Virus record (IMG/VR): IMGVR_UViG_3300045988_030968
Span: 1-44,150 of that record
Length of the DNA stretch: 44,150 bases
DNA from: a virus
Taxonomy: Duplodnaviria > Heunggongvirae > Uroviricota > Caudoviricetes
Direction: 5' to 3' (one strand)
Shown: in pieces, positions 26,905 to 39,475 of the stretch
Layout of the letters: each line of letters begins with the position of its first letter
How positions within the stretch are numbered: position 1 is the stretch's first letter
The notes under the pieces: generated by a model
What the model was told of the DNA's origin: nothing
Databases searched by the model: none
The model's input: the letters and a program-made list of their open reading frames with translations, nothing else
Translations under genes and position numbers: made by a program

Positions 26905-26933
26905 AAGGCCCCTTCCGGGGCCTTAGTTTTATT
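26905..26933. terminator. Bidirectional terminator
   Basis: AAGGCCCC-TTCC-GGGGCCTT with T-runs on both strands; overlaps stop of minus-strand gene. Confidence 0.6.
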
Positions 26934-27213
26934 GCTTTCCTAATGCTTTCTTGATCGCGCTGTTTGCCAGATTTAATGGATGGTCTTCATGGCAATCCTC
27001 GGGAGATACCGCGCAAACATCCTCAACGTAATCGCGAAGCTGGCGAAGTGCTTCAAGTAACTCTGGTGCAGAGGAAATAAGTTTTGTGTTAGCCAATTTT
27101 ACTGAGTCCTTTTCCCTCATACTCATTACCTCCGCCACATAAACATCACCCGCCCAGATAGCAGTTCCGCGATTAACCCATGCACCGTCTGTACCTTTAA
27201 ATTCGTGTGTCAT
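26929..27213 (-). CDS. Reverse-oriented accessory (moron) gene, hypothetical 94-aa protein
   Basis: ATG 27213 with AGGAG upstream; own promoter (27238-27270) and terminator; opposite to flanking structural genes. Confidence 0.6.
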   Translation of the reverse strand: MTHEFKGTDGAWVNRGTAIWAGDVYVAEVMSMREKDSVKLANTKLISSAPELLEALRQLRDYVEDVCAVSPEDCHEDHPLNLANSAIKKALGKQ

Positions 27214-31443: not shown

Positions 31444-32058
31444 ATGGCGAAGACCAAAACAGAGATGTTTACCCTTATCGGTGCAAATCTTCCCGATAAC
31501 ACTACCGGTCTTATTACCCCCGCGAAGCTACGCGAAGTAATGACCCAGATGGCGGATTCGCCTATTTACGCCACTCCCGGTGTTAAAGAGGTTGAAGTTC
31601 TCCGTGCCGCGTCGACCGTGGCACAAGCGCCTTCCGCAGTAGATACAGCATTGCAGGTATCGTTCGGCTCTGCTCAGGGAAGCGCATCTGACCCGGTAAT
31701 GATTAATGCCGCCGGGCTGGTTACATTCAACACCGCGGGTAACTACGCCGTTCGCATCAAGTTACAGGCTGGGCGCACGGGTGCTAGCGGTACCTCAATC
31801 CTTTTATCGCGCATTCTTCTTAACGGCGCTCAGTATGGTTCGCCCGCCGCCACGAAACTGGTTAGCGCCGACATAACAATCCCGATTGAGTCCCGCGTCG
31901 TTATTAACCCGACCGCAGGCCAGACGTTTGCCGTTCAGATTATGCGGGATAGTGCCGGGAGTGACTTCGGCGGCGTATACCCACAAGCGGCTACCGTAAC
32001 TGCATGGGGGACCGCGCCATCCGCGCTACTGGTTATTTCGAGACTGGAGGCCGCCTGA
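31444..32058 (+). CDS. Structural protein, hypothetical
   Basis: 204 aa; position in head-tail joining region. Confidence 0.45.
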   Translation: MAKTKTEMFTLIGANLPDNTTGLITPAKLREVMTQMADSPIYATPGVKEVEVLRAASTVAQAPSAVDTALQVSFGSAQGSASDPVMINAAGLVTFNTAGNYAVRIKLQAGRTGASGTSILLSRILLNGAQYGSPAATKLVSADITIPIESRVVINPTAGQTFAVQIMRDSAGSDFGGVYPQAATVTAWGTAPSALLVISRLEAA

Positions 32059-32417
32059 TGAGCACCTCTTTCAGTAAACGTATGCAAGGCGTTGGCACAC
32101 GCCTGCTAACCAAATTCGGTAGCACGGTATCCCTTGTTCGCGCTGGCTCGAAAGTATGGGATGAGGTTCTCGGTGAGTTCGTCTGGTCTGACGATGAAGT
32201 GTTGCCGTTGAAGGCCGTTCCGGTTCCGGTAAACGCGGGACTGGTAAACGGTACGACGATTCAGGCGGGAGACATGATTGTTAAAGCCGATTGCAGCGTC
32301 GTTCCTAAGATGGAAGACAAGGTGCAATTCGGCGGCGAGCAATGGTCTGTCGTATCCATCGAGAAGAAGATGGTTAATGATGATGTCGTGGCATACTTTA
32401 TTCAGGTGAGAAAATGA
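32058..32417 (+). CDS. Putative head-tail adaptor
   Basis: Internal ATG of track ORF; TGATG overlap with upstream stop. Confidence 0.45.
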   Translation: MSTSFSKRMQGVGTRLLTKFGSTVSLVRAGSKVWDEVLGEFVWSDDEVLPLKAVPVPVNAGLVNGTTIQAGDMIVKADCSVVPKMEDKVQFGGEQWSVVSIEKKMVNDDVVAYFIQVRK

Positions 32418-32914
32418 GTTTCGCTCTTGATGTCTCTAAGTTTGTGGAAAAGGCGAAGAAGAATCCCGAGAAGGTGATGCGTCAGGTGTCTATCAAGCTG
32501 TTTTCCGCTATCATAAAGGCGAGTCCGGTAGATACGGGCCGCTTTCGTATGAACTGGATGGCATCCGGCAGTGCTCCGGCTTCCGGTACAAGTCGCGGTA
32601 CCGACCCTAGCGGGGCGAACGCAATAAGTGCCATGGTTTCTACCGTGTCGGGTTTACCCGACTGGAGCGAGTTCACCCTGACAAATAACCTGCCGTATGC
32701 GGAAGTTATAGAGTTCGGGGGTTACGCTTCCGGCTTCCACGGCCCTAAGCGCCCTTCTAACTTAGGCTCTAAATTTGTTGGGCCATTAAGGCCGAAAGCG
32801 CCAAGCAGAACAACCACAGACGGGTATTCACTCCAGGCCCCGCAAGGTGTTGTCCGGGTTAACGTTCAGCGATTCAATAAACTGCTGGAAGAAGAAGCGA
32901 GGAAGTATAAATAA
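32414..32914 (+). CDS. HK97 gp10-like tail-completion / neck protein
   Basis: SPVDTGRFRMNW motif. Confidence 0.55.
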   Translation: MSFALDVSKFVEKAKKNPEKVMRQVSIKLFSAIIKASPVDTGRFRMNWMASGSAPASGTSRGTDPSGANAISAMVSTVSGLPDWSEFTLTNNLPYAEVIEFGGYASGFHGPKRPSNLGSKFVGPLRPKAPSRTTTDGYSLQAPQGVVRVNVQRFNKLLEEEARKYK

Positions 32915-33327
32915 TGGGCTACTTTGAGGACTTAACAAAAGCGTTCGATGTGCCGCTGGTAGCCTTCGGAACCGCCAACGGCATCAGGGTAGCGCTTGAA
33001 AATATCGACGCGCCGACGTCAACCGATACACCGTATCTGGCAAGTTACATGCTACTTGCGGATACGGAACAGGCTGATTTGTTCTTCACGGAACAACGCT
33101 CTGGCGTCTATCAGGTAGATATTAACTACGCGTCGGTGAAAGGTAGCGCACCAATCAATAAAATGGCAGACTTACTTAACACGGCGTTTAAAGCAGGTAA
33201 GTCATTTTCACGTAACGACATCTGCGCCGAGGTTCAATCGGTTAGCCTGGGGCCGCTGATTGTAGAAAACGGATGGGCCAAACGGCCATTGTCAATTAAC
33301 TTTATTGCATTCACCAAGAGGCTGTGA
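32914..33327 (+). CDS. Putative tail terminator protein
   Basis: 137 aa immediately upstream of major tail protein. Confidence 0.45.
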   Translation: MGYFEDLTKAFDVPLVAFGTANGIRVALENIDAPTSTDTPYLASYMLLADTEQADLFFTEQRSGVYQVDINYASVKGSAPINKMADLLNTAFKAGKSFSRNDICAEVQSVSLGPLIVENGWAKRPLSINFIAFTKRL

Positions 33328-34496
33328 ATATGGCTACAACTCCTTTTAAGGGCGCGACTACCGCGCAATTCTATGTGGCGGAAGTCACCCCGGGCGTAAC
33401 ACCGGCTAACCCTGTCTGGTCGCCGTTGCGTAACACTGGCGGTGTTCCTGCTATCACCCGCGACACGCTGACCTCCAACGAACTGGACGGCAGCCGTGAA
33501 ACTACATCCATCCGCACCGGTAACAAACAGGTTAGCGGTGAATACGCGATCGAGCTTAGCTCGAAAAGCCAGGACGACTGGCTGGCGGGTGCTTTAGGCT
33601 CTACGTGGCAATCAGGTGTATCCTTGACTGACCTGTCAATTACCGTCGCACCGGCGGGCAAGACGTTCACCCGTGCTGATGGCAGCTTTATTTCTGATGG
33701 CGTTGAAGTAGGCGACCTGATCGCGTTCACCGACTTAACGGGCGACAACGCTAAACCGTTCATCGTAACCGAGGTAAGTGCGACTGTTGTCACAGGCGCC
33801 GGCATCCAACATACTCTGACCACTGAGACCGTAACAACCGACGCTAAAACCGGCGACAAACTGGAAACTGGTAACGCGTGTAAGACGTTCTCTATCCTCA
33901 CCTGGTACAAAGGCCAGTGCGGCGGGGCCGACGCGTACACGCTAACCAAAGGCGTGGAAGTTTCCGGTTTTACCGTGGAGCAGGCCGTTAACGCGATGGT
34001 AACGGGCAGCTTCCCGTTCATCGGGCGCAGCCAGGAGATTCTCGCGACGCCGCCGTCTGGTTCTGACTTCTCCTCTGTTACGTTTACTGATGAGCCGTTC
34101 TCCTCGGTCGACGTTTCTGTGTTCGACGGTTCTACGCCGTTGCGTTGCGATAGCCTGACCATCACCAACGACAACAGTGCATCCGCGCAGTTCGAACTTG
34201 GCAACACTAACGTGGCCTTTGTGGAACGTAGCCGCGCGGCTAACACCTTCTCCATCTCTGGTAAACTGTACGACATGGCGATGATTCAGAAGTTTATCAA
34301 CGAGCAGCAGGTAGAGATTAACTCTATTCTGGCTGGGGTAAACGGGGCTATGTCTTTCAGTTTGAAACGTGCAGAGCTTACGGCGGTTACACCTGAGATT
34401 GGCGGGCCTGAGTCAATCACTCAGAGCATAGAAGGACAGTCCACAGGCAATCAATATCAATCCTCTATCGTAATTCAGCGTATCACCTACGCATAA
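33324..34496 (+). CDS. Major tail protein
   Basis: 390 aa, Thr/Ser/Gly-rich; upstream of chaperone and tape measure genes. Confidence 0.6.
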   Translation: MNMATTPFKGATTAQFYVAEVTPGVTPANPVWSPLRNTGGVPAITRDTLTSNELDGSRETTSIRTGNKQVSGEYAIELSSKSQDDWLAGALGSTWQSGVSLTDLSITVAPAGKTFTRADGSFISDGVEVGDLIAFTDLTGDNAKPFIVTEVSATVVTGAGIQHTLTTETVTTDAKTGDKLETGNACKTFSILTWYKGQCGGADAYTLTKGVEVSGFTVEQAVNAMVTGSFPFIGRSQEILATPPSGSDFSSVTFTDEPFSSVDVSVFDGSTPLRCDSLTITNDNSASAQFELGNTNVAFVERSRAANTFSISGKLYDMAMIQKFINEQQVEINSILAGVNGAMSFSLKRAELTAVTPEIGGPESITQSIEGQSTGNQYQSSIVIQRITYA

Positions 34497-34500
34497 AACT

Positions 34501-34525
34501 AAGGCCCCGAAAGGGGCCTTTTCTT
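34501..34525. terminator. Bidirectional terminator
   Basis: AAGGCCCC-GAAA-GGGGCCTT with T-runs on both strands. Confidence 0.65.
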
Positions 34526-34754
34526 ACTCATCAATATTGCTTCGATACTCCCGTAACTTCTCCAGACTTTCAATTGCTTCTGCTAAGTCGGTCCCGGTGT
34601 CCTTGTGGCCGCGCAAGCCCATACACAATAGCTTCTTCAATGCGTGCTGTAGCGCCGGGTCGCGGATATCGAAGGCGCGTAGCACGTCATAAACGTCTAC
34701 TGCCATAGTGCTGCCGTGAGTGTTTGTCATTGTGCGGTTATATTTTGAAGTCAT
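34524..34754 (-). CDS. Hypothetical small protein, last gene of reverse-oriented cassette
   Basis: 76 aa; ATG overlaps upstream stop (ATGA). Confidence 0.5.
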   Translation of the reverse strand: MTSKYNRTMTNTHGSTMAVDVYDVLRAFDIRDPALQHALKKLLCMGLRGHKDTGTDLAEAIESLEKLREYRSNIDE

Positions 34755-35881
34755 CCCAGCATCTCCGGTGAAATAGTTAAACGTGCGACCTCGCCGTATT
34801 CGGCGCTATAAGTAATTACGTTTGCACTGCGGCCTGACATCCATCCGCCGCGGGAGGCGTAGGCGTCTTTAGCCGCTAAGGTGCGGTGTTGCTCAACAAT
34901 CATGTTACGGCTTTCTACAATCTTCTGGTGATGCAGGTGGCCTACGTGAGCGTAGCTGTACTCGCTTTCCCCGAATGCTTTTCTGAACTTAGATATCATA
35001 ATTGGTTCGACCACCTCAAACCGACATTTATGACCATGTGTGAAGAACAGCGTCGTTTTGCCGTGGCGCACCATCTTGTACACATCCGGCGACGTATCAA
35101 CGAACACACGCGGCTCGTTGTCATACAGCGTACTGAACATCTCCGCTAACCAAATCATACCCGATTCGTCGTGGTTTCCTTGCACGATAAGCAAGCGAAC
35201 ATTTTTATGCTTAACCAGAGCCATATCAACAACACGGCGCACCATACGAATCATGTAGCGCACCAGTTTCTGATAGCGGGTGTCCGCATCAAGAATATGA
35301 CCACTCGCTGGCGTAACGGCATCAAGACTATCGAAGTGCGCGAGGTCGCCAAGCAGGTTAATAACCCCAGTTCCCGCGTCCGGTGCTTTCTGAAATGCAG
35401 CATCGAACCAGCGAGAAAACAGGTCTTCAGCAATCTTCATATCCCAGTCGTCGCCGCTTTCATCGGCCCAGGCCAGCATACCGAGATGGAAATCAGATAC
35501 CGTGTAAAGATTGAGTAGTTTATCGTCGCGTTTAGCCCGAATGGCTTTAACAGGAGCAACGGGGGTAATCTCCGACTTCATCCCTTCGATTACGGCTTTC
35601 ATCAACTCTACCTGACGTTCGGCATCGGTGTCGGTCTTAACCCATTGCAGCTTAGTGTTGCCGAACTCGTCCACAAGTGACGACGTGCCTTTAATCTTGT
35701 AGCCGTCTGGTACAAGGTGACTAACGTCGCGCCCGTGGCCCACGCCTTTCTTTGCCAGCTTCGCTTTACGGATACGAATAACGCGGTCTGAGATGCCGTA
35801 TTTACGGGCGATATCGATATTCTTCATCCCGGCGTTCAATTCTTCCTGTAACTGTTCGTCGGTTATTTTCTTCTGGGCCAT
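34751..35881 (-). CDS. HTH-containing calcineurin-like metallophosphoesterase
   Basis: 376 aa; N-terminal HTH KNIDIARKYGISDRVIRIRKAKL; phosphoesterase motifs DFH, GDLAHFD, GNHDE, THGH, GHLHH. Confidence 0.6.
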   Translation of the reverse strand: MAQKKITDEQLQEELNAGMKNIDIARKYGISDRVIRIRKAKLAKKGVGHGRDVSHLVPDGYKIKGTSSLVDEFGNTKLQWVKTDTDAERQVELMKAVIEGMKSEITPVAPVKAIRAKRDDKLLNLYTVSDFHLGMLAWADESGDDWDMKIAEDLFSRWFDAAFQKAPDAGTGVINLLGDLAHFDSLDAVTPASGHILDADTRYQKLVRYMIRMVRRVVDMALVKHKNVRLLIVQGNHDESGMIWLAEMFSTLYDNEPRVFVDTSPDVYKMVRHGKTTLFFTHGHKCRFEVVEPIMISKFRKAFGESEYSYAHVGHLHHQKIVESRNMIVEQHRTLAAKDAYASRGGWMSGRSANVITYSAEYGEVARLTISPEMLG

Positions 35882-35919
35882 GCTTACTTCCTCGTGTTTA
35901 GGATTTGTCCTATGCTAGC

Positions 35920-36111
35920 TCACTTCTCGTTAACATTCGAGTTGCACGCCCAGATTAAAATAAAGACCCACGGCAGCAGAACCCAACCAAGAAACAGATT
36001 AGCCGTGAATATCGCCAACTTCGCTTTATGGTTGCGGAAATACGCAACCAGGAAAGGCGCGAAATAAGCGAGAAGTGCAAACAGAATTAAGGAAACTGGT
36101 AAACTGGACAT
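35920..36111 (-). CDS. Superinfection immunity protein (T4 Imm-like small membrane protein)
   Basis: Start at ATG 36111 after AAGGGG; LILFALLAYFAPFLVAYFRNHKAKLAIFTANLFLGWVLLPWVFILIW matches Imm-family pattern. Confidence 0.6.
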   Translation of the reverse strand: MSSLPVSLILFALLAYFAPFLVAYFRNHKAKLAIFTANLFLGWVLLPWVFILIWACNSNVNEK

Positions 36112-36137
36112 TTTAAACCCCTTCATTGTTGGTGTAA

Positions 36138-36170
36138 GTGAATAGTACCCTATTATATTGGGGTGTGCAA
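36138..36170 (-). promoter_or_regulatory. Conserved promoter, copy F (minus-strand TTGCAC-17-TACTAT)
   Basis: Differs from copy E at 2 of 33 positions. Confidence 0.5.
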
Positions 36171-36277
36171 GTAGTGTGTTAGAATAAGTTTGCGCCTAGT
36201 GTCGCACACGAAAAGCGGGTGGTTCCCGTCTGGCGCATTTTCCTTAACCTGTAACCTCTTAACCAAAGGATTAAAGA

Positions 36278-36694
36278 ATGAAACTTTCTGATTTTTATTT
36301 CGAAGAGAAAGCACTGGTAGGCAAGAAGATGCCGATTCTGCTGCCGAATGGTGAAGACTCCGGTGAGTGGCTTAACGTTGTAAGCCCTGATGCTGATGCC
36401 GCTGTTAAAGCTGGTCGTGCTTTCATTATTGCGTACCGTCGCGGGTTGGCGCGTTTCGAAGAACTGGAAAAAGTCGCCAAAGAAACCGGCGACTATACTG
36501 AATATAACCTGGCGGTTAACGAACTGGCGGAAGACCTCAACCGACAACTCGCGGCAGAAGTCGTAAACGGCTGGAGCTTTGACGAGCCTTTCTCTAAGGA
36601 AGCGTTTAACAAATTGCTCGACCAGTTCAAGGCATTAGGTACACAGGTAGCAGCGTTCCATAACGCTGAGCGCAAAGCATTACAGGAAAAGTAG
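36278..36694 (+). CDS. Tail assembly chaperone (gpG-like)
   Basis: 138 aa directly upstream of tape measure gene; ends at slippery GGAAAAG. Confidence 0.65.
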   Translation: MKLSDFYFEEKALVGKKMPILLPNGEDSGEWLNVVSPDADAAVKAGRAFIIAYRRGLARFEELEKVAKETGDYTEYNLAVNELAEDLNRQLAAEVVNGWSFDEPFSKEAFNKLLDQFKALGTQVAAFHNAERKALQEK

Positions 36695-37059
36695 ACGCGC
36701 TGTACAGGTTCGCCACCTACGAGTTCGTTGATAAGCATAAAATCAGAGAGTTTGATTCTATAGCCGACGGACATGAACAGGCGCTTATCGCGATGGGTGT
36801 AATCGATAAGAAAAAACGTGCAGCGCGACGGGGTGGGCCGGAATGCCCGCCCCTTTTTATATCCACCTTTGAGACGTATTGCGACATTAAGTTTACGCGA
36901 CACGTGCGCGAGGACGCTGTAGTATTGTTTGCAAGAGAATCCGTTACGTGGCAAGACCTGAAAGCCTATCTCGATGTTACGCAAAAACAGCTTAGCCTGT
37001 TCGAGATAGACATTATCATGGGCTTAGAAGCAATCTTTGAAGGTAGAAATCATGGCTGA
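36278..37059 (+). CDS. Tail assembly chaperone frameshift product (gpGT-like, -1 shift at 36685-36691)
   Basis: -1 frame is open from 36670 to 37059; heptamer G GAA AAG immediately before G stop. Confidence 0.5.
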
Positions 37060-39475
37060 TACCGCTAGTTTGATAGTACGAGTATCATCGACCGGCGTCG
37101 ATAAAACCACATCACAACTGAACGGGCTTACTAAGGCGGCGGGGGCTGCCGCGGCAGCCGTCGTTAGTCTGGAAACCGCTAAGCAGGTGTTCAGTGCGCT
37201 GGTGGACTCCCAGCGCAACTTCGATAAGCTGAATTCCGGCCTCATCACGATGACCGGGAGCGCTGAGAACGCGGCTAAGGCTTTCAGCGTCCTGCAACAG
37301 TTCGCAAAAGAAACCCCATACGGGCTTAACCAGGCAGTGGAAGGCTTTACTAAGCTGGTGGCTCTGGGCCTGAACCCCAGCAAAGAAGCGTTAATCTCCT
37401 ACGGCAACACCGCCGCGGCTATGGGTAAAGACCTTAATCAAATGATTGAGGCTGTGGCGGACGCCAGTACCTTTGAATTTGAGCGCTTAAAAGAGTTCGG
37501 CATCAAGTCCTCCCAACAGGCAGATACAGTGTCGTTCACGTTCCGCGGCGTAACGACTACTGTTAAAAAGAACTCCGAAGAGATTCAGAAATACCTTCTG
37601 AACATCGGCAACACGGATTTCGCCGGGGCGATGGAGACGCGCTCTAAGACGTTAGACGGGCAGTTATCCAGCCTAGCGGACTCCTTTGACGGCCTTGTAC
37701 TCGCGGTGGCGCAATCAGGTTTCGGCGACGCCGTAGGCGAGCAAGCTGCGACCGCGGAAGATGCTATCACGGCGCTTACCGACGCCATCGCGTCTAATGA
37801 GATAGCCGCTACACTCCAGGATTGGGTGACACTGTTCAATGAATCGTTCAAGTTTATTTCTGATGCCTTGAACGACCTGGCATTTGACACCGAGGACAAA
37901 TCCGCGGATATGTCCGACTCGCTAGGGACTATACCGGACGCCATCCGTGAGTGGTTGCCTGACATCCAGCAGACATTCCACGAGGTTATTGCGTGGTTCC
38001 AGCGCATTGACGATTACGCGGTAGCGTTAGGCCAGACCCTTGCCGACGTGTTTGACCCGAGCAAAACGGCAGCGCTCACATTTAAAAACCTAACCGCAGA
38101 GGCTGACGCTGCGTACGCCGCCAGTATAAAACGTGCAGAGGCTGAATCACAGGCCATCACCAACAGGTCTAAGCAGCGTAAGAAAGAAATTGAGGAACAG
38201 CGCAAGCAGTATGACGAGCGCAAGAAGCAAGAAATTGACTTAGCCAGCCTTGTTAATAAAAAGGGCGGAACTGGCGGAACCGGAAATACCAACGACAAAG
38301 ACGCGAAAGCCGCTGCTAAGAAAGCGGAGCAATTGCGCAAACAGGCCCAGGATTATCTGGACACTTTGGCGCGTCAGAACAACGATGAGTTAAAGGCTAT
38401 TGACGCGCAGGAACAGCAGAAACTTAAAGAGGCCGCTAAATACCGAAAAGAAGGGGCGCTAACCGCTGAAGAGTATGAAAAGGCGAAAACCGCAATAGTT
38501 CTTCAATACGGACAAAAGCGCCAGGACGCTCTTGATAAAGAGTTAGCCGAGGAGCAGAAAAAACTGCAACAAGGCGTGGCTGTTCTGGCGTCAATCGACC
38601 CTATCGCAAACTTACAGCTCGAGCGGCAGAAGAGACTCGCAGTTATAGAGGAATACGAGGCCCAAGAAAACTCAGTACATGAAGTCGCGTTGCAAGCACG
38701 GGCAGAACTGGACAAGCAATACAACGAAGGGTTGGCCGCCGCAGCTGAGGAGCGTTTCCGCAGCCAATCCGAATGGAACAACATGTTAATGGACTCCCTC
38801 GATGCGGTTGGTGCATCCGCGTCCAGTTCCATAGTCGGTCTTATTAACGGCACACAGACCGCGAGTGAGGCAATGGCAAACTTGGGCAGCGCCATTCTAT
38901 CCTCAGTCGTTTCAGGGCTAACACAGATGGGGGTGGAGTACCTGAAAAACATGATTATCGGGCAAACGGCATCCGCGGCGACTATCGCGACCGCATCGGC
39001 TACCGGCGCGGCGATTGCTGCAGCGTATGCCCCCGCCGCAGCGATGGCGTCCCTGGCTACTCTCGGGACAAACAGCGCCCCAGCGATGGCGGGCATCACA
39101 TCAACGGTGGCGAGTACCCAAGCGTTGGCCCTAACTGGATTCCGTGAACAAGGCGGGCAAATGAACGCTGGCGGCAGCTATCTTGTCGGCGAGCGTGGCC
39201 CTGAGATTATCAAGATGGCGGGGGCAGGGCGTGCGGTAAACGCAAGCCAAACACGGCAACAGTTAAACGGTAATAATAACGGAAATAGTGGGCCAGCCAA
39301 TATCAGCATTATAAATAACACCAGCGCACAAATTGGAAATACCAGTGTTGAGCAGGATGATGAAGGCCGTTTGCGTATCATCATAGAGGAGCAAGTTGCC
39401 GCTTCGCTGCAGAATAGTAACAGCAAAATATCGAAAGCGAGGAAGGCTACAAGAAACGCCCCTGGCTTTAAGTGA
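37052..39475 (+). CDS. Tail tape measure protein
   Basis: About 808 aa, Ala/Gln/Glu-rich coiled coil; start at internal ATG of track ORF. Confidence 0.8.
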   Translation: MADTASLIVRVSSTGVDKTTSQLNGLTKAAGAAAAAVVSLETAKQVFSALVDSQRNFDKLNSGLITMTGSAENAAKAFSVLQQFAKETPYGLNQAVEGFTKLVALGLNPSKEALISYGNTAAAMGKDLNQMIEAVADASTFEFERLKEFGIKSSQQADTVSFTFRGVTTTVKKNSEEIQKYLLNIGNTDFAGAMETRSKTLDGQLSSLADSFDGLVLAVAQSGFGDAVGEQAATAEDAITALTDAIASNEIAATLQDWVTLFNESFKFISDALNDLAFDTEDKSADMSDSLGTIPDAIREWLPDIQQTFHEVIAWFQRIDDYAVALGQTLADVFDPSKTAALTFKNLTAEADAAYAASIKRAEAESQAITNRSKQRKKEIEEQRKQYDERKKQEIDLASLVNKKGGTGGTGNTNDKDAKAAAKKAEQLRKQAQDYLDTLARQNNDELKAIDAQEQQKLKEAAKYRKEGALTAEEYEKAKTAIVLQYGQKRQDALDKELAEEQKKLQQGVAVLASIDPIANLQLERQKRLAVIEEYEAQENSVHEVALQARAELDKQYNEGLAAAAEERFRSQSEWNNMLMDSLDAVGASASSSIVGLINGTQTASEAMANLGSAILSSVVSGLTQMGVEYLKNMIIGQTASAATIATASATGAAIAAAYAPAAAMASLATLGTNSAPAMAGITSTVASTQALALTGFREQGGQMNAGGSYLVGERGPEIIKMAGAGRAVNASQTRQQLNGNNNGNSGPANISIINNTSAQIGNTSVEQDDEGRLRIIIEEQVAASLQNSNSKISKARKATRNAPGFK

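What the first reader, a model, noticed from the sequence alone, without database searches (positions are those of the whole stretch)
34501..36170. Reverse-oriented three-gene accessory cassette inside the tail module: Imm-like protein, HTH-metallophosphoesterase, small protein
Between the major tail gene and the tail chaperone genes, three minus-strand genes are bracketed by their own promoter (36138-36170) and a bidirectional terminator (34501-34525). The first matches the T4 Imm-like superinfection immunity pattern. The second joins an N-terminal HTH to a complete calcineurin-like phosphoesterase motif set (DFH, GDLAHFD, GNHDE, GHLHH); the substrate cannot be read from sequence and could be DNA or RNA ends, phosphoproteins or nucleotide second messengers. 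The third (76 aa) is uncharacterised. The arrangement is typical of morons, and pairing an exclusion protein with a phosphoesterase may be an uncharacterised exclusion or counter-defence module.
Basis: partly seen in the sequence, partly recalled or inferred. Interest (0 to 1): 0.7.

Follow-up and report, generated by a model that had tools for sequence, protein, structure and literature searches.

The report
Conserved reverse gene cassette in tail module
A three-gene unit that reads backwards inside the tail genes of this E. coli phage is real and has its own promoter and terminator, but it is a long-standing, already annotated feature of the whole phage subfamily, and its central DNA-binding phosphoesterase is probably a DNA nuclease, not a partner of the exclusion protein next to it.

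Summary
The window is a complete Kagunavirus (Guernseyvirinae) genome. In detail: three minus-strand genes lie between the major tail gene and the tail chaperone genes. They are Imm (63 aa, PF14373), an HTH-metallophosphoesterase (MPE, 376 aa) and a 76-aa protein (p76). A promoter conserved in position and a hairpin terminator bracket them.

The cassette sits at this place in Kagunavirus and Jerseyvirus. The MPE is the fixed anchor. The first slot holds Imm or a secreted 108-aa protein. The third slot holds either p76 or a HAD phosphatase plus dNMP-kinase-like pair. The two slots assort independently. Outside Guernseyvirinae, about 259 sampled MPE loci lack Imm. There the MPE lies beside DNA and nucleotide-metabolism genes or at the lysis/packaging border.

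The MPE keeps all catalytic residues. Its best fold matches are Mre11 and PolD-DP1. Of three phage MPEs tested, it scores best, weakly, against T5 A1, the host-DNA-degrading enzyme. The most likely role is a DNA-tethered nuclease for host-DNA breakdown or end processing. Imm is a separate exclusion gene. p76 has a confidently predicted structure without a Pfam family or a match among solved PDB structures.

No function has been tested. Interest is moderate to low.

The parts
36142..36170 (-). Sigma-70-type promoter of the cassette: -35 TTGCAC (36170..36165), 17-nt spacer, -10 TACTAT (36147..36142)
   Evidence: Read directly from the sequence. It is a weak consensus match (7 of 12) and did not pass the scan thresholds. 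The position, spacing and core bases are conserved in Jerseyvirus (TTGCGC, 17 nt, TATTAT), whereas the adjacent TATAAT is not. Function is inferred, not shown.
35920..36111 (-). Imm-family superinfection immunity protein, 63 aa, two transmembrane helices (the ORF is open up to ATG 36126, but the second ATG is the likely start)
   Evidence: PF14373 at E 3e-12; phrog_1039 'immunity to superinfection' at E 2.5e-22; 30% identity over 46 residues to T4 Imm. The Shine-Dalgarno sequence AAGGGG lies before ATG 36111, and that start aligns with the Jerseyvirus start.
34751..35881 (-). HTH-metallophosphoesterase, 376 aa. HTH at residues 1-45 (nt 35747-35881), beta-hairpin plus helix at residues 61-104, MPE core at residues 119-376 (nt 34754-35527)
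   Evidence: phrog_704 at E 1.7e-166. Pfam Metallophos_2 and Metallophos hits lie just below the cut-offs. All metal-binding and catalytic residues are invariant. AlphaFold pLDDT is 90. Best PDB fold matches are Mre11, PolD DP1 and Rv0805. The HTH is seen across the family. Shine-Dalgarno sequence GAGGAAG.
34524..34754 (-). p76: a 76-aa protein of a widespread family without a Pfam family, with its start codon overlapping the MPE stop codon (ATGA)
   Evidence: phrog_2452 at E 8e-36; 782 phage records; 3547 clusters, none among the 120 listed carrying a Pfam domain. AlphaFold pLDDT is 88, with a beta-hairpin plus three helices. No match among solved PDB structures (best E 1.1). ATGA overlap confirmed.
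34501..34520 (.). Hairpin terminator shared by the converging tail-tube gene and the cassette (AAGGCCCC GAAA GGGGCCTT, with T-rich tails on both strands)
   Evidence: Passes the terminator scan on both strands. It lies in the 27-nt gap between the two stop codons. It is retained in K1G although the neighbouring gene is replaced there.
33324..34496 (+). Major tail (tube) protein gene; left flank of the cassette
   Evidence: Annotated as tail tube or tail protein in relatives.
36278..36694 (+). Tail assembly chaperone gene; right flank of the cassette
   Evidence: Annotated as tail assembly chaperone in K1G and Bas74.

Best explanation
The cassette is one transcription unit. It runs from the promoter at about 36170-36142, through Imm, HTH-MPE and p76, to the terminator at 34520-34501. 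It was already present in the common ancestor of Kagunavirus and Jerseyvirus. It combines two unrelated kinds of gene.

The fixed core is the HTH-MPE. I infer that it is a Mn2+-type dinuclear phosphodiesterase held on DNA by its N-terminal HTH, and that it acts as a DNA nuclease of the phage's nucleic-acid and nucleotide metabolism. The most likely role is breakdown of host (or other non-phage) DNA into nucleotides, as the metallophosphatase A1 does in T5 and gp47 (with gp46) does in T4. DNA-end resection or end cleaning for recombination and repair is the close second.

Around this core are two exchangeable slots. Slot 1 holds an envelope protein. Here it is Imm, which by homology to T4 Imm would block DNA entry of superinfecting phage at the inner membrane. 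Slot 3 holds either p76 or a HAD phosphatase plus a dNMP-kinase-like protein. p76 is co-translated with the MPE, has no predictable activity, and may be an accessory or adaptor protein.

Shown here: gene structure, family memberships, invariant catalytic residues, fold, conservation and neighbourhood statistics. Inferred: the substrate (DNA), the physiological role, and every function proposed for p76.
For: Anatomy and conservation.

Subfamily-wide position with variable slots: in 46 loci that hold the tail-tube gene, the MPE and the chaperone gene, 30 carry Imm and 12 the secreted 108-aa protein. In slot 3, 26 carry p76 and 17 the HAD plus P-loop pair, and the two never occur together. All four combinations of slot 1 and slot 3 occur.

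The swap of p76 for HAD plus P-loop is precise: it runs from the MPE stop codon to the terminator.

The MPE is widespread and is not tied to Imm: 2061 phage records, 4668 clusters at 50% identity, and no Imm in about 259 loci outside Guernseyvirinae.

The enzyme is under selection: nine active-site positions are invariant, and H182 in GDxxH is at least 90% conserved. GDxxH is the motif II form seen in Mre11 and SbcD (from my own knowledge of those families).

Fold: the top PDB matches are the nucleases Mre11 and PolD DP1 (E 4e-8 to 1e-7).

A DNA-binding HTH is present across the family.

Neighbours in other lineages: HAD phosphatase, P-loop protein and DNA ligase in Era103-type phages; DNA ligase in a Campylobacter phage; HAD plus P-loop protein in Webervirus; endonuclease VII and dGTP_diPhyd_N proteins.

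Profile comparison: T5 A1 scores best of the three phage MPEs tested (family profile score 40.3, E 3e-4; T4 gp47 25.8; lambda NinI 19.9). The N-terminal HTH of an A1 homologue aligns with the window HTH. A1-family genes also sit next to nucleotide-processing genes: Dmp, dGTP_diPhyd_N and MazG-like.

T5 A1 is a predicted metallophosphatase that is necessary and sufficient for host DNA degradation (bioRxiv 10.64898/2026.04.02.716235). [quoted passage not shown]

In a Kagunavirus transcriptome the Imm gene falls in a different temporal class from the tail genes and in the same class as the DNA methylases and the DNA polymerase (PMC12645636).
Against: No biochemical or genetic data exist for any member of this MPE family. 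The link to T5 A1 is weak (hhalign probability 40%, local matches around motifs III to V). Foldseek TM-scores to all PDB MPEs are low (0.3-0.4). A cyclic-nucleotide phosphodiesterase (Rv0805) ranks among the top hits, so the fold does not fix the substrate. No Rad50/SbcC-type partner is encoded nearby. I did not find any evidence on whether Guernseyvirinae degrade host DNA. In several lineages the gene sits at the lysis/terminase border rather than in a replication module, so other roles remain possible. The promoter is weak by consensus. The transcriptome study is coarse and did not report the MPE gene itself.
Confidence: 0.5

Rival explanations
1. Nucleic-acid end-healing and repair enzyme. 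The MPE cleans damaged 3' ends (3'-phosphate, 2',3'-cyclic phosphate or adducts) of nicked DNA or cleaved tRNA. It would work with a 3'-phosphatase, a 5'-kinase and a ligase, as T4 Pnkp with ligase and bacterial Pnkp do. Such a role could also counter host nucleases.
For: In K1G, Webervirus and Era103-type phages the gene just downstream is a PF25109 HAD_PNKP phosphatase followed by a P-loop protein. In Era103 a DNA ligase follows, and in Campylobacter phage NCTC12673 the ligase is adjacent. The p76 domain is fused to a BRCT protein close to a PNK-like gene in Aeromonas phage LAh_7. Bacterial Pnkp uses an MPE-type phosphatase for 2',3'-cyclic phosphate ends (PMC2190708 and PMC3675462, abstracts listed).
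Against: The P-loop neighbour matches the dNMP-kinase family phrog_139, not a polynucleotide kinase. The HAD neighbour is about as similar to T5 Dmp-type dNMP phosphatases as its name suggests it is to PNK. The window phage has neither a HAD phosphatase nor a kinase in the cassette, and its close relative Bas74 has no annotated ligase. The motifs are of the Mre11 type (GDxxH), not the lambda-phosphatase or CthPnkp type (GDxVDRG; from my own knowledge).
Confidence: 0.2
2. Counter-defence enzyme for small molecules. The MPE would hydrolyse a nucleotide-derived immune signal or cofactor, such as cyclic oligonucleotides, cyclic mononucleotides or NAD-related dinucleotides.
For: The MPE superfamily includes cyclic-nucleotide phosphodiesterases, and Rv0805 is among the top fold hits. 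An MPE domain of the Metis defence system cleaves NAD+ (bioRxiv 10.1101/2025.11.05.686725). The cassette also carries a host-interaction gene.
Against: A conserved DNA-binding HTH is hard to reconcile with a soluble small-molecule hydrolase. The recurring neighbours are DNA and nucleotide-metabolism genes, not known anti-defence genes. There is no PADLOC similarity. The literature searches run here found no paper linking this family to anti-defence.
Confidence: 0.1
3. Imm and the MPE (with or without p76) act together as a superinfection-exclusion module. Imm would stop DNA entry, and the nuclease would destroy any DNA that gets in.
For: The genes are adjacent and share one transcription unit in this phage and in about two thirds of sampled Guernseyvirinae. 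A DNA nuclease could in principle attack incoming DNA.
Against: Imm is replaced by unrelated envelope proteins in 12 of 46 loci and is absent in 4, while the MPE stays. The MPE occurs without Imm in all of about 259 sampled loci outside the subfamily. Slot 1 and slot 3 assort independently. The small two-transmembrane gene next to T5 A1 is not conserved in other T5-like phages.
Confidence: 0.07
4. The HTH-MPE is mainly a transcription or packaging regulator. Its sigma-region-4-like HTH would bind late-promoter or pac-proximal DNA, and the MPE domain would be secondary.
For: The HTH matches Sigma70_r4_2, GerE and Fis-type models. There is a weak hit to a 'late transcriptional activator' PHROG. 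In Dhillonvirus, Drexlerviridae, and Vibrio and Rhodobacter phages the gene lies next to lysis genes or just upstream of the terminase genes.
Against: All catalytic residues are invariant over deep divergence, so catalysis is the selected function. Campylobacter-phage homologues lack the N-terminal region altogether (the match starts at residue 65; the gene is about 317 aa). In Guernseyvirinae the gene is nowhere near the lysis or packaging genes.
Confidence: 0.08

Closest known systems
T4 Imm (superinfection immunity protein, PF14373)
   Same: A small inner-membrane protein with two transmembrane helices. The Pfam match is above the gathering score. Direct identity is 30% over both helices and the connecting loop. 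It is encoded by a virulent phage.
   Different: It is 63 aa against 83 aa in T4, and it lies in a siphovirus tail module. Exclusion activity and its target phages are untested. In relatives the slot is exchangeable with a secreted 108-aa protein.
Phage T5 A1 (predicted metallophosphatase that drives host DNA degradation; works with the DNA-binding protein A2 and lies near the dNMP phosphatase Dmp)
   Same: Both have an MPE catalytic core. A1 is the best-scoring of the three phage MPEs in profile comparison, with shared residues beyond the metal ligands (NHDxxxSxWL, and a C-terminal ...S....ITY). A1 homologues are annotated as homeodomain-like or align to the window HTH at the N-terminus. Both families are encoded beside nucleotide-processing genes such as Dmp-like HAD phosphatases and dGTP_diPhyd_N proteins.
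   Different: The window protein is 376 aa against 556 aa. The hhalign probability is only 40%, so homology closer than the shared superfamily is not established. A1 is a pre-early gene on first-step-transfer DNA and is needed for second-step transfer; no such process is known for this phage group. In T5 DNA binding is supplied by a separate protein (A2), whereas here the HTH is fused.
Mre11/SbcD nucleases (T4 gp47, bacterial SbcD, archaeal Mre11)
   Same: Top PDB fold match (T. maritima Mre11, E 4e-8). Motif II has the GDxxH form and motif III is GNHD. [quoted passage not shown]
   Different: There is no capping domain after the core, because the protein ends with the MPE fold. No Rad50/SbcC ATPase partner gene is nearby. 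An N-terminal HTH is present. Sequence similarity is not significant (E 0.39 against PDB; hhalign score 25.8).
Phage morons (lambda-type accessory genes with their own promoter and terminator inside late operons)
   Same: Reverse orientation, its own promoter-like site, and a terminator, all embedded in the tail operon. The first slot carries exchangeable envelope-directed genes. Imm has a lower GC content (0.448).
   Different: The unit is ancestral to at least two genera. Its core gene has genome-typical GC content and is a widely conserved phage enzyme, not a sporadic accessory gene.

Membership tests
Imm_superinfect (PF14373, T4 Imm family) | Match to the family profile above the curated cut-off | tested here: met
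   46.6 bits against a cut-off of 27.9, E 3e-12; phrog_1039 at E 2.5e-22.
Imm_superinfect (PF14373, T4 Imm family) | Two transmembrane helices joined by a short basic loop, alignable to T4 Imm itself | tested here: met
   Pairwise alignment to T4 Imm: 14 of 46 residues identical across both hydrophobic helices and the R/K loop. The E-value is inflated by transmembrane composition.
Imm_superinfect (PF14373, T4 Imm family) | Blocks DNA entry of superinfecting phage | not testable with these tools
   This needs expression in E. coli and plating or DNA-injection assays.
Calcineurin-like metallophosphoesterase superfamily | Five-motif signature DxH / GDxx(D/H) / GNH(D/E) / H / GxH with conserved metal ligands | tested here: met
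   All motifs are present and invariant in 54 homologues. Pfam PF12850 scores 24.0 bits (cut-off 27) and PF00149 scores 20.2 bits (cut-off 21.5), both just below the cut-offs. 16 of 54 family members hit PF00149 at E up to 0.01.
Calcineurin-like metallophosphoesterase superfamily | Beta-sandwich MPE fold | tested here: met
   AlphaFold model with pLDDT 90. 119 PDB matches at E up to 0.001; the 50 listed are all MPE-fold proteins.
Mre11/SbcD nuclease family | Significant sequence or profile match to Mre11/SbcD | tested here: not met
   The family profile against PDB SbcD/Mre11 gives E 0.39-0.76. hhalign against T4 gp47 gives score 25.8 and probability 4%.
Mre11/SbcD nuclease family | C-terminal capping domain and a Rad50/SbcC partner | tested here: not met
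   The protein ends with the MPE core. No SMC-like ATPase gene lies in the cassette, and none is annotated in the close relative Bas74.
T5 A1 family (host-DNA-degrading metallophosphatase) | Profile-profile homology beyond the shared superfamily motifs | tested here: inconclusive
   hhalign gives score 40.3, E 3e-4 and probability 40% over 67 columns. This is better than gp47 or NinI but is not decisive.
T5 A1 family (host-DNA-degrading metallophosphatase) | Degrades the host chromosome when expressed | not testable with these tools
   This needs expression with DAPI or pulsed-field read-outs, as was done for A1.
Phage moron | Its own promoter and terminator, separable from the surrounding operon | tested here: met
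   The promoter-like site is conserved in position and the hairpin scores as a terminator on both strands. Transcription itself has not been shown for this phage.
Phage moron | Sporadic presence among close relatives and atypical base composition | tested here: not met
   The MPE is present, by the way the loci were selected, in all 46 loci that hold both flanking tail genes, and its GC equals the genome GC. Only the Imm slot and the third slot are sporadic.
Known anti-phage defence or exclusion proteins (PADLOC) | Match to any PADLOC model | tested here: not met
   No hit at E up to 1 for any of the three proteins.

The most novel reading that the evidence does not exclude
The HTH-MPE may not be a housekeeping nuclease. 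It could be a DNA-tethered hydrolase that removes a nucleotide-derived danger signal or immune messenger, for example products of genome degradation or cyclic or linear oligonucleotides. p76, with its unmatched predicted structure, would be its specificity or regulatory partner. The cassette, with Imm, would then be a combined exclusion and anti-defence island present in more than 2000 phage genomes.
Probability: 0.1. Interest if true: 0.7.

Novelty: new member of a known kind. Interest (0 to 1): 0.35.

Why it matters
The cassette itself is already annotated in hundreds of deposited Kagunavirus and Jerseyvirus genomes, as 'superinfection immunity protein', 'DNA repair exonuclease' or 'metallophosphoesterase', and 'hypothetical protein'. 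As a feature it is therefore not new.

Two things remain open and testable. First, the HTH-MPE family is very common: 2061 phage records, including T1-like, Dhillonvirus, Jersey-like and marine phages. None of the papers found in the searches run here reports a functional test of it. If it is a compact relative of T5 A1, it would identify the enzyme by which many non-T-even phages dismantle host DNA. That process is now known to be sensed by bacterial immunity through m6dAMP (Metis and PUA-Cal-HAD systems). Second, p76 defines a large phage protein family with a confidently predicted structure but no Pfam family and no match among solved PDB structures.

The site between the tail-tube gene and the chaperone gene is also a well-defined hot spot where genes are exchanged. 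This could be useful for phage engineering and for discovering accessory genes.

Tried and rejected
1. I suspected p76 was the C-terminal remnant of a deleted ATPase gene. BLAST against the K1G P-loop and HAD proteins found nothing. p76 is an independent domain that replaces those genes and is fused to other domains elsewhere.

2. I suspected from memory that p76 is a DUF3310/SaV-like, DUF6378 or dGTP_diPhyd_N relative. Pfam gave no hit for 18 members at E up to 10. hhalign against DUF6378 and dGTP_diPhyd_N proteins gave probability about 0.1%. DUF3310 itself could not be tested.

3. The 70-aa protein coupled to the MPE gene in Dhillonvirus is not related to p76.

4. In T5 and T4 a small membrane protein gene also lies directly upstream of the MPE nuclease gene (T5.005, T4 47.1), which could have been meaningful synteny with Imm. 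T5.005 has no PF14373 hit and only a 21-residue similarity. It is absent in other T5-like phages. I treat the resemblance as coincidence.

5. The perfect TATAAT at 36157..36152 (minus strand) is not conserved in Jerseyvirus and has a poor -35, so I do not take it as the cassette's -10.

6. An RNA element in the conserved intergenic block: no Rfam hit, and the fold energy is no better than shuffled sequence (z = -0.18).

7. Sequence search of the MPE against PDB found only weak HTH and motif-level hits.

9. The search for related loci with the diverse MPE alignment failed because no stretch was conserved enough, so single seed proteins were used instead.

10. The literature searches found nothing functional about the cassette. 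The search was poorly worded and returned nothing relevant.
Full report
**Identity of the window.** The 44,150-bp window is essentially a complete genome of a Kagunavirus (subfamily Guernseyvirinae). The region 33300-37100 is about 92% identical over its full length to Escherichia phage 26, DUEC01, JSSK01 and Bas74. It matches 440 phage records, mostly Salmonella Jerseyvirus and Escherichia Kagunavirus. The annotated relative Bas74 has structural and lysis genes on one strand and the replication genes (helicase, methylase, resolvase, endonuclease VII, DNA polymerase, annealing protein, exonuclease, primase-helicase) on the other. The cassette shares its strand with the replication genes but lies inside the tail module.

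**Check of the observation.** Three minus-strand ORFs lie at 35920-36126, 34751-35881 and 34524-34754. They sit between the tail-tube gene (33324-34496) and the tail assembly chaperone gene (36278-36694).

- The first protein is a true Imm-family member: PF14373 at E 3e-12, above the cut-off; phrog_1039; and 30% identity to T4 Imm across both transmembrane helices. Its start is most likely the second ATG (36111, 63 aa). That ATG has the Shine-Dalgarno sequence AAGGGG and aligns with the Jerseyvirus start, and K1G is annotated the same way.
Nine active-site positions are invariant in 54 homologues that share only 32-50% identity with it. It matches phrog_704 at E 1.7e-166. Its AlphaFold model (pLDDT 90) has a three-helix N-terminal domain, a beta-hairpin with a helix, and an MPE core that runs to the C-terminus. 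The HTH is a family trait: individual members hit Sigma70_r4_2, GerE and Fis-type HTH models (best E-values 1.5e-9, 2.4e-8 and 2.6e-7).
- The third protein belongs to a large family: 782 phage records and 3547 clusters.
- The hairpin at 34501-34520 passes the terminator scan on both strands and fills the gap between the converging stop codons.
Its -35 core, spacing and -10 are nevertheless conserved in Jerseyvirus, while the neighbouring perfect TATAAT is not.
- The MPE and p76 genes overlap by ATGA, so they are probably translationally coupled.
- A coarse transcriptome of the Kagunavirus K1B4 puts the Imm gene in a different temporal class from the tail genes, together with the methylases and the DNA polymerase (PMC12645636). 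This fits independent transcription.

**The cassette is ancestral, with a fixed core and two variable slots.** K1G has Imm and the MPE, then a HAD phosphatase (PF25109 HAD_PNKP) and a P-loop protein (phrog_139, dNMP-kinase family) in place of p76. Nucleotide homology with the window breaks exactly at the MPE stop codon and resumes at the terminator.

I collected 72 loci from IMG/VR with the window MPE, added the GenBank examples, and scored them by tblastn. Forty-six loci hold the tail-tube gene, the MPE and the chaperone gene. The counts are:

| Slot | Content | Loci (of 46) |
|---|---|---|
| 1 | Imm | 30 |
| 1 | secreted 108-aa protein | 12 |
| 1 | neither | 4 |
| 3 | p76 | 26 |
| 3 | HAD plus P-loop pair | 17 |
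| 3 | neither | 3 |

p76 and the HAD plus P-loop pair never occur together. HNH homing endonucleases or an Ant-like protein are sometimes added. All four combinations of slot 1 and slot 3 occur. Other proteins found in slot 1 also carry signal peptides or a transmembrane helix. Slot 1 therefore behaves like a moron slot for envelope-directed genes, while the MPE is constant and has the genome's GC content (0.508 against 0.506; Imm is 0.448).

**The MPE outside this subfamily.** tblastn finds the MPE in 2061 phage records: Drexlerviridae, Dhillonvirus (74% identity), Era103-type podoviruses, Vibrio, Rhodobacter, Roseobacter and Campylobacter phages. An exhaustive search finds 4668 clusters at 50% identity. 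Among about 259 further loci, gathered with five different seed proteins, none has Imm near the MPE. The gene contexts are:

| Phage group | Gene order around the MPE |
|---|---|
| Era103 type | exonuclease, endonuclease VII, MPE, HAD phosphatase, P-loop protein, DNA ligase |
| Webervirus | Dam methylase, three small hypothetical genes, MPE, HAD phosphatase, P-loop protein, holin |
| Campylobacter phage | RusA, two small hypothetical genes, DNA ligase, MPE |
| Warwickvirus | helicase, VRR-NUC, Dam methylase, three small hypothetical genes, MPE, holin, endolysin |
| Dhillonvirus | lysozyme, small hypothetical gene, MPE, 70-aa protein, TerS, TerL |

An unbiased clustering of neighbours over 58 MPE clusters (70% identity) gave these as the most widespread families: endolysin (17 clusters), dGTP_diPhyd_N proteins (7), HNH endonucleases (7), HAD phosphatase (6, nearly always at position +1) and Dam methylase (6). 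Terminase, ligase and endonuclease VII follow. The enzyme is thus a common phage gene. It usually lies at the end of the DNA-metabolism block or at the lysis/packaging border, and it is often co-translated with a nucleotide-processing enzyme.

**What the enzyme most likely does.** No solved structure is close by sequence. By fold, the best PDB matches are the nucleases Mre11 (E 4e-8) and PolD DP1 (E 1e-7), followed by the cyclic-nucleotide phosphodiesterase Rv0805. Motif II has the GDxxH form, with H182 at least 90% conserved. From my own knowledge, this form is typical of Mre11 and SbcD, and differs from the GDxVDRG of lambda-type protein phosphatases.

A recent preprint shows that T5 A1, a predicted metallophosphatase, is necessary and sufficient for host DNA degradation. 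It is encoded with the DNA-binding protein A2 and the dNMP phosphatase Dmp (bioRxiv 10.64898/2026.04.02.716235; T5 map). I compared the MPE family profile with three phage MPEs:

| Target | hhalign score | E-value | Probability |
|---|---|---|---|
| T5 A1, single sequence | 34.2 | 0.001 | 21% |
| T5 A1, seven-member alignment | 40.3 | 3e-4 | 40% |
| T4 gp47 | 25.8 | 0.01 | 4% |
| lambda NinI | 19.9 | 0.05 | 1% |

Shared residues extend beyond the metal ligands (NHDxxxSxWL, and a C-terminal S....ITY). The N-terminus of a Caulobacter-phage A1 homologue aligns with the window HTH. A Vibrio homologue is annotated as homeodomain-like. A1-family genes are followed by Dmp-like HAD phosphatases, a dGTP_diPhyd_N protein or a MazG-like protein. 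These are the same kinds of neighbour as for the HTH-MPE. T5 Dmp-type proteins show weak full-length similarity to the 'polynucleotide kinase' HAD proteins next to the HTH-MPE (24.7% over 162 residues, E 1e-4 in a 20-sequence database).

Together this favours a DNA-tethered nuclease whose products feed nucleotide metabolism, that is, host-DNA breakdown. End processing for recombination or repair is the close alternative. None of this has been shown experimentally, and the A1 link is suggestive only.

**p76.** The family has the conserved core KY.R...DVYDVL.AF....PA.QHALKK.L..G.RGHK...D..EAI.S. It has no Pfam family. The model is confident (pLDDT 88; a beta-hairpin plus three helices). It has no structural neighbour in the PDB (best E 1.1). 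The domain occurs at the C-terminus of an 'ATPase' in Pseudoalteromonas phage Pq0. It occurs at the N-terminus of a BRCT-containing protein near a PNK-like gene in Aeromonas phage LAh_7. In T1-like phages it is present but not next to the MPE. Its role is unknown. Its coupling to the MPE, and its exclusivity with the HAD plus kinase pair, suggest an accessory partner of the enzyme. This is inference only.

**Verdict.** The cassette is not a new or sporadic moron, and the data do not support a functional pairing of Imm and the phosphoesterase. The best reading is a conserved, independently transcribed unit that joins an exclusion gene (Imm) to a widespread, uncharacterised HTH-MPE nuclease and a small protein whose predicted structure has no PDB match. 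This is a new member of known kinds, of moderate to low interest. Two things are worth carrying forward: the hypothesis that the HTH-MPE is a compact analogue or relative of T5 A1, and p76 as a family without Pfam coverage.

Noticed in passing
window 36179-36277 (intergenic, between the cassette promoter and the tail chaperone start): This block is unusually well conserved between Kagunavirus and Jerseyvirus. It holds two small hairpins and an outer stem that show apparent compensatory changes (GTGT-CGC-ACAC against CGGT-CGC-ACCG; GCGCC...GGCGC against GCGTC...GACGC), followed by ATTTTCC on the + strand. There is no Rfam hit, and the fold energy is no better than shuffled sequence (z = -0.18). 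It may be a regulatory site or a 5'-UTR element for the chaperone and tape-measure operon.
   Followed up: partly
L025 3610-3936, L005 2609-2938 and other Guernseyvirinae loci (the position equivalent to window 35920-36111): In 12 of 46 relatives the Imm gene is replaced by a 108-109-aa protein with an N-terminal signal peptide. Other relatives carry a 120-aa secreted protein or a single-transmembrane protein there. This looks like a swap site for envelope-directed, possibly exclusion, genes.
   Followed up: partly
L008 2991-3491; L030, L037 and L067 (between the MPE and p76, or after p76): HNH homing endonuclease genes (phrog_99) are inserted inside the cassette in several relatives. An Ant/KilAC-like 223-aa gene follows p76 in many Jerseyviruses.
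   Followed up: partly
L313 3200-3829 (Vibrio phage D332), L317 3122-3769, L311 124-858 (T5 dmp): T5 Dmp (dNMP 5'-phosphatase) homologues are annotated as 'polynucleotide kinase' in some T5-like genomes. They show weak full-length similarity to the HAD 'polynucleotide kinase' genes next to the HTH-MPE in K1G, Webervirus and Era103. Some phage 'PNK' annotations may in fact be Dmp-like nucleotidases.
   Followed up: partly
L006 2859-3725 (Pseudoalteromonas phage Pq0); L007 3483-4943 (Aeromonas phage LAh_7): The p76 domain is fused to the C-terminus of a 288-aa 'ATPase' (phrog_17613). It is also fused to the N-terminus of a 486-aa protein that ends in a BRCT domain, two genes upstream of a PNK-like HAD gene.
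   Followed up: partly
window 26929-27213 (minus strand): A second reverse-oriented small ORF (94 aa here; a 67-aa hypothetical gene at the same place in Bas74) lies inside the head module, between the head-decoration gene and the spanin genes. It may be another moron-like insertion.
   Followed up: no
window 36278-37059 and 32004-32914: In K1G the tail assembly chaperone and the tail-completion protein are each annotated as two-piece (joined) products, which implies programmed frameshifts. The corresponding overlapping ORFs are present in the window.
   Followed up: no
L311 3473-3670 (T5.005) and L318 12445-12585 (T4 47.1): In T5 and in T4 a very small membrane-protein gene lies immediately upstream of the MPE nuclease gene (A1, gp47), as Imm does here. 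T5.005 is not an Imm-family member and is missing in other T5-like phages, so this is probably coincidence.
   Followed up: yes
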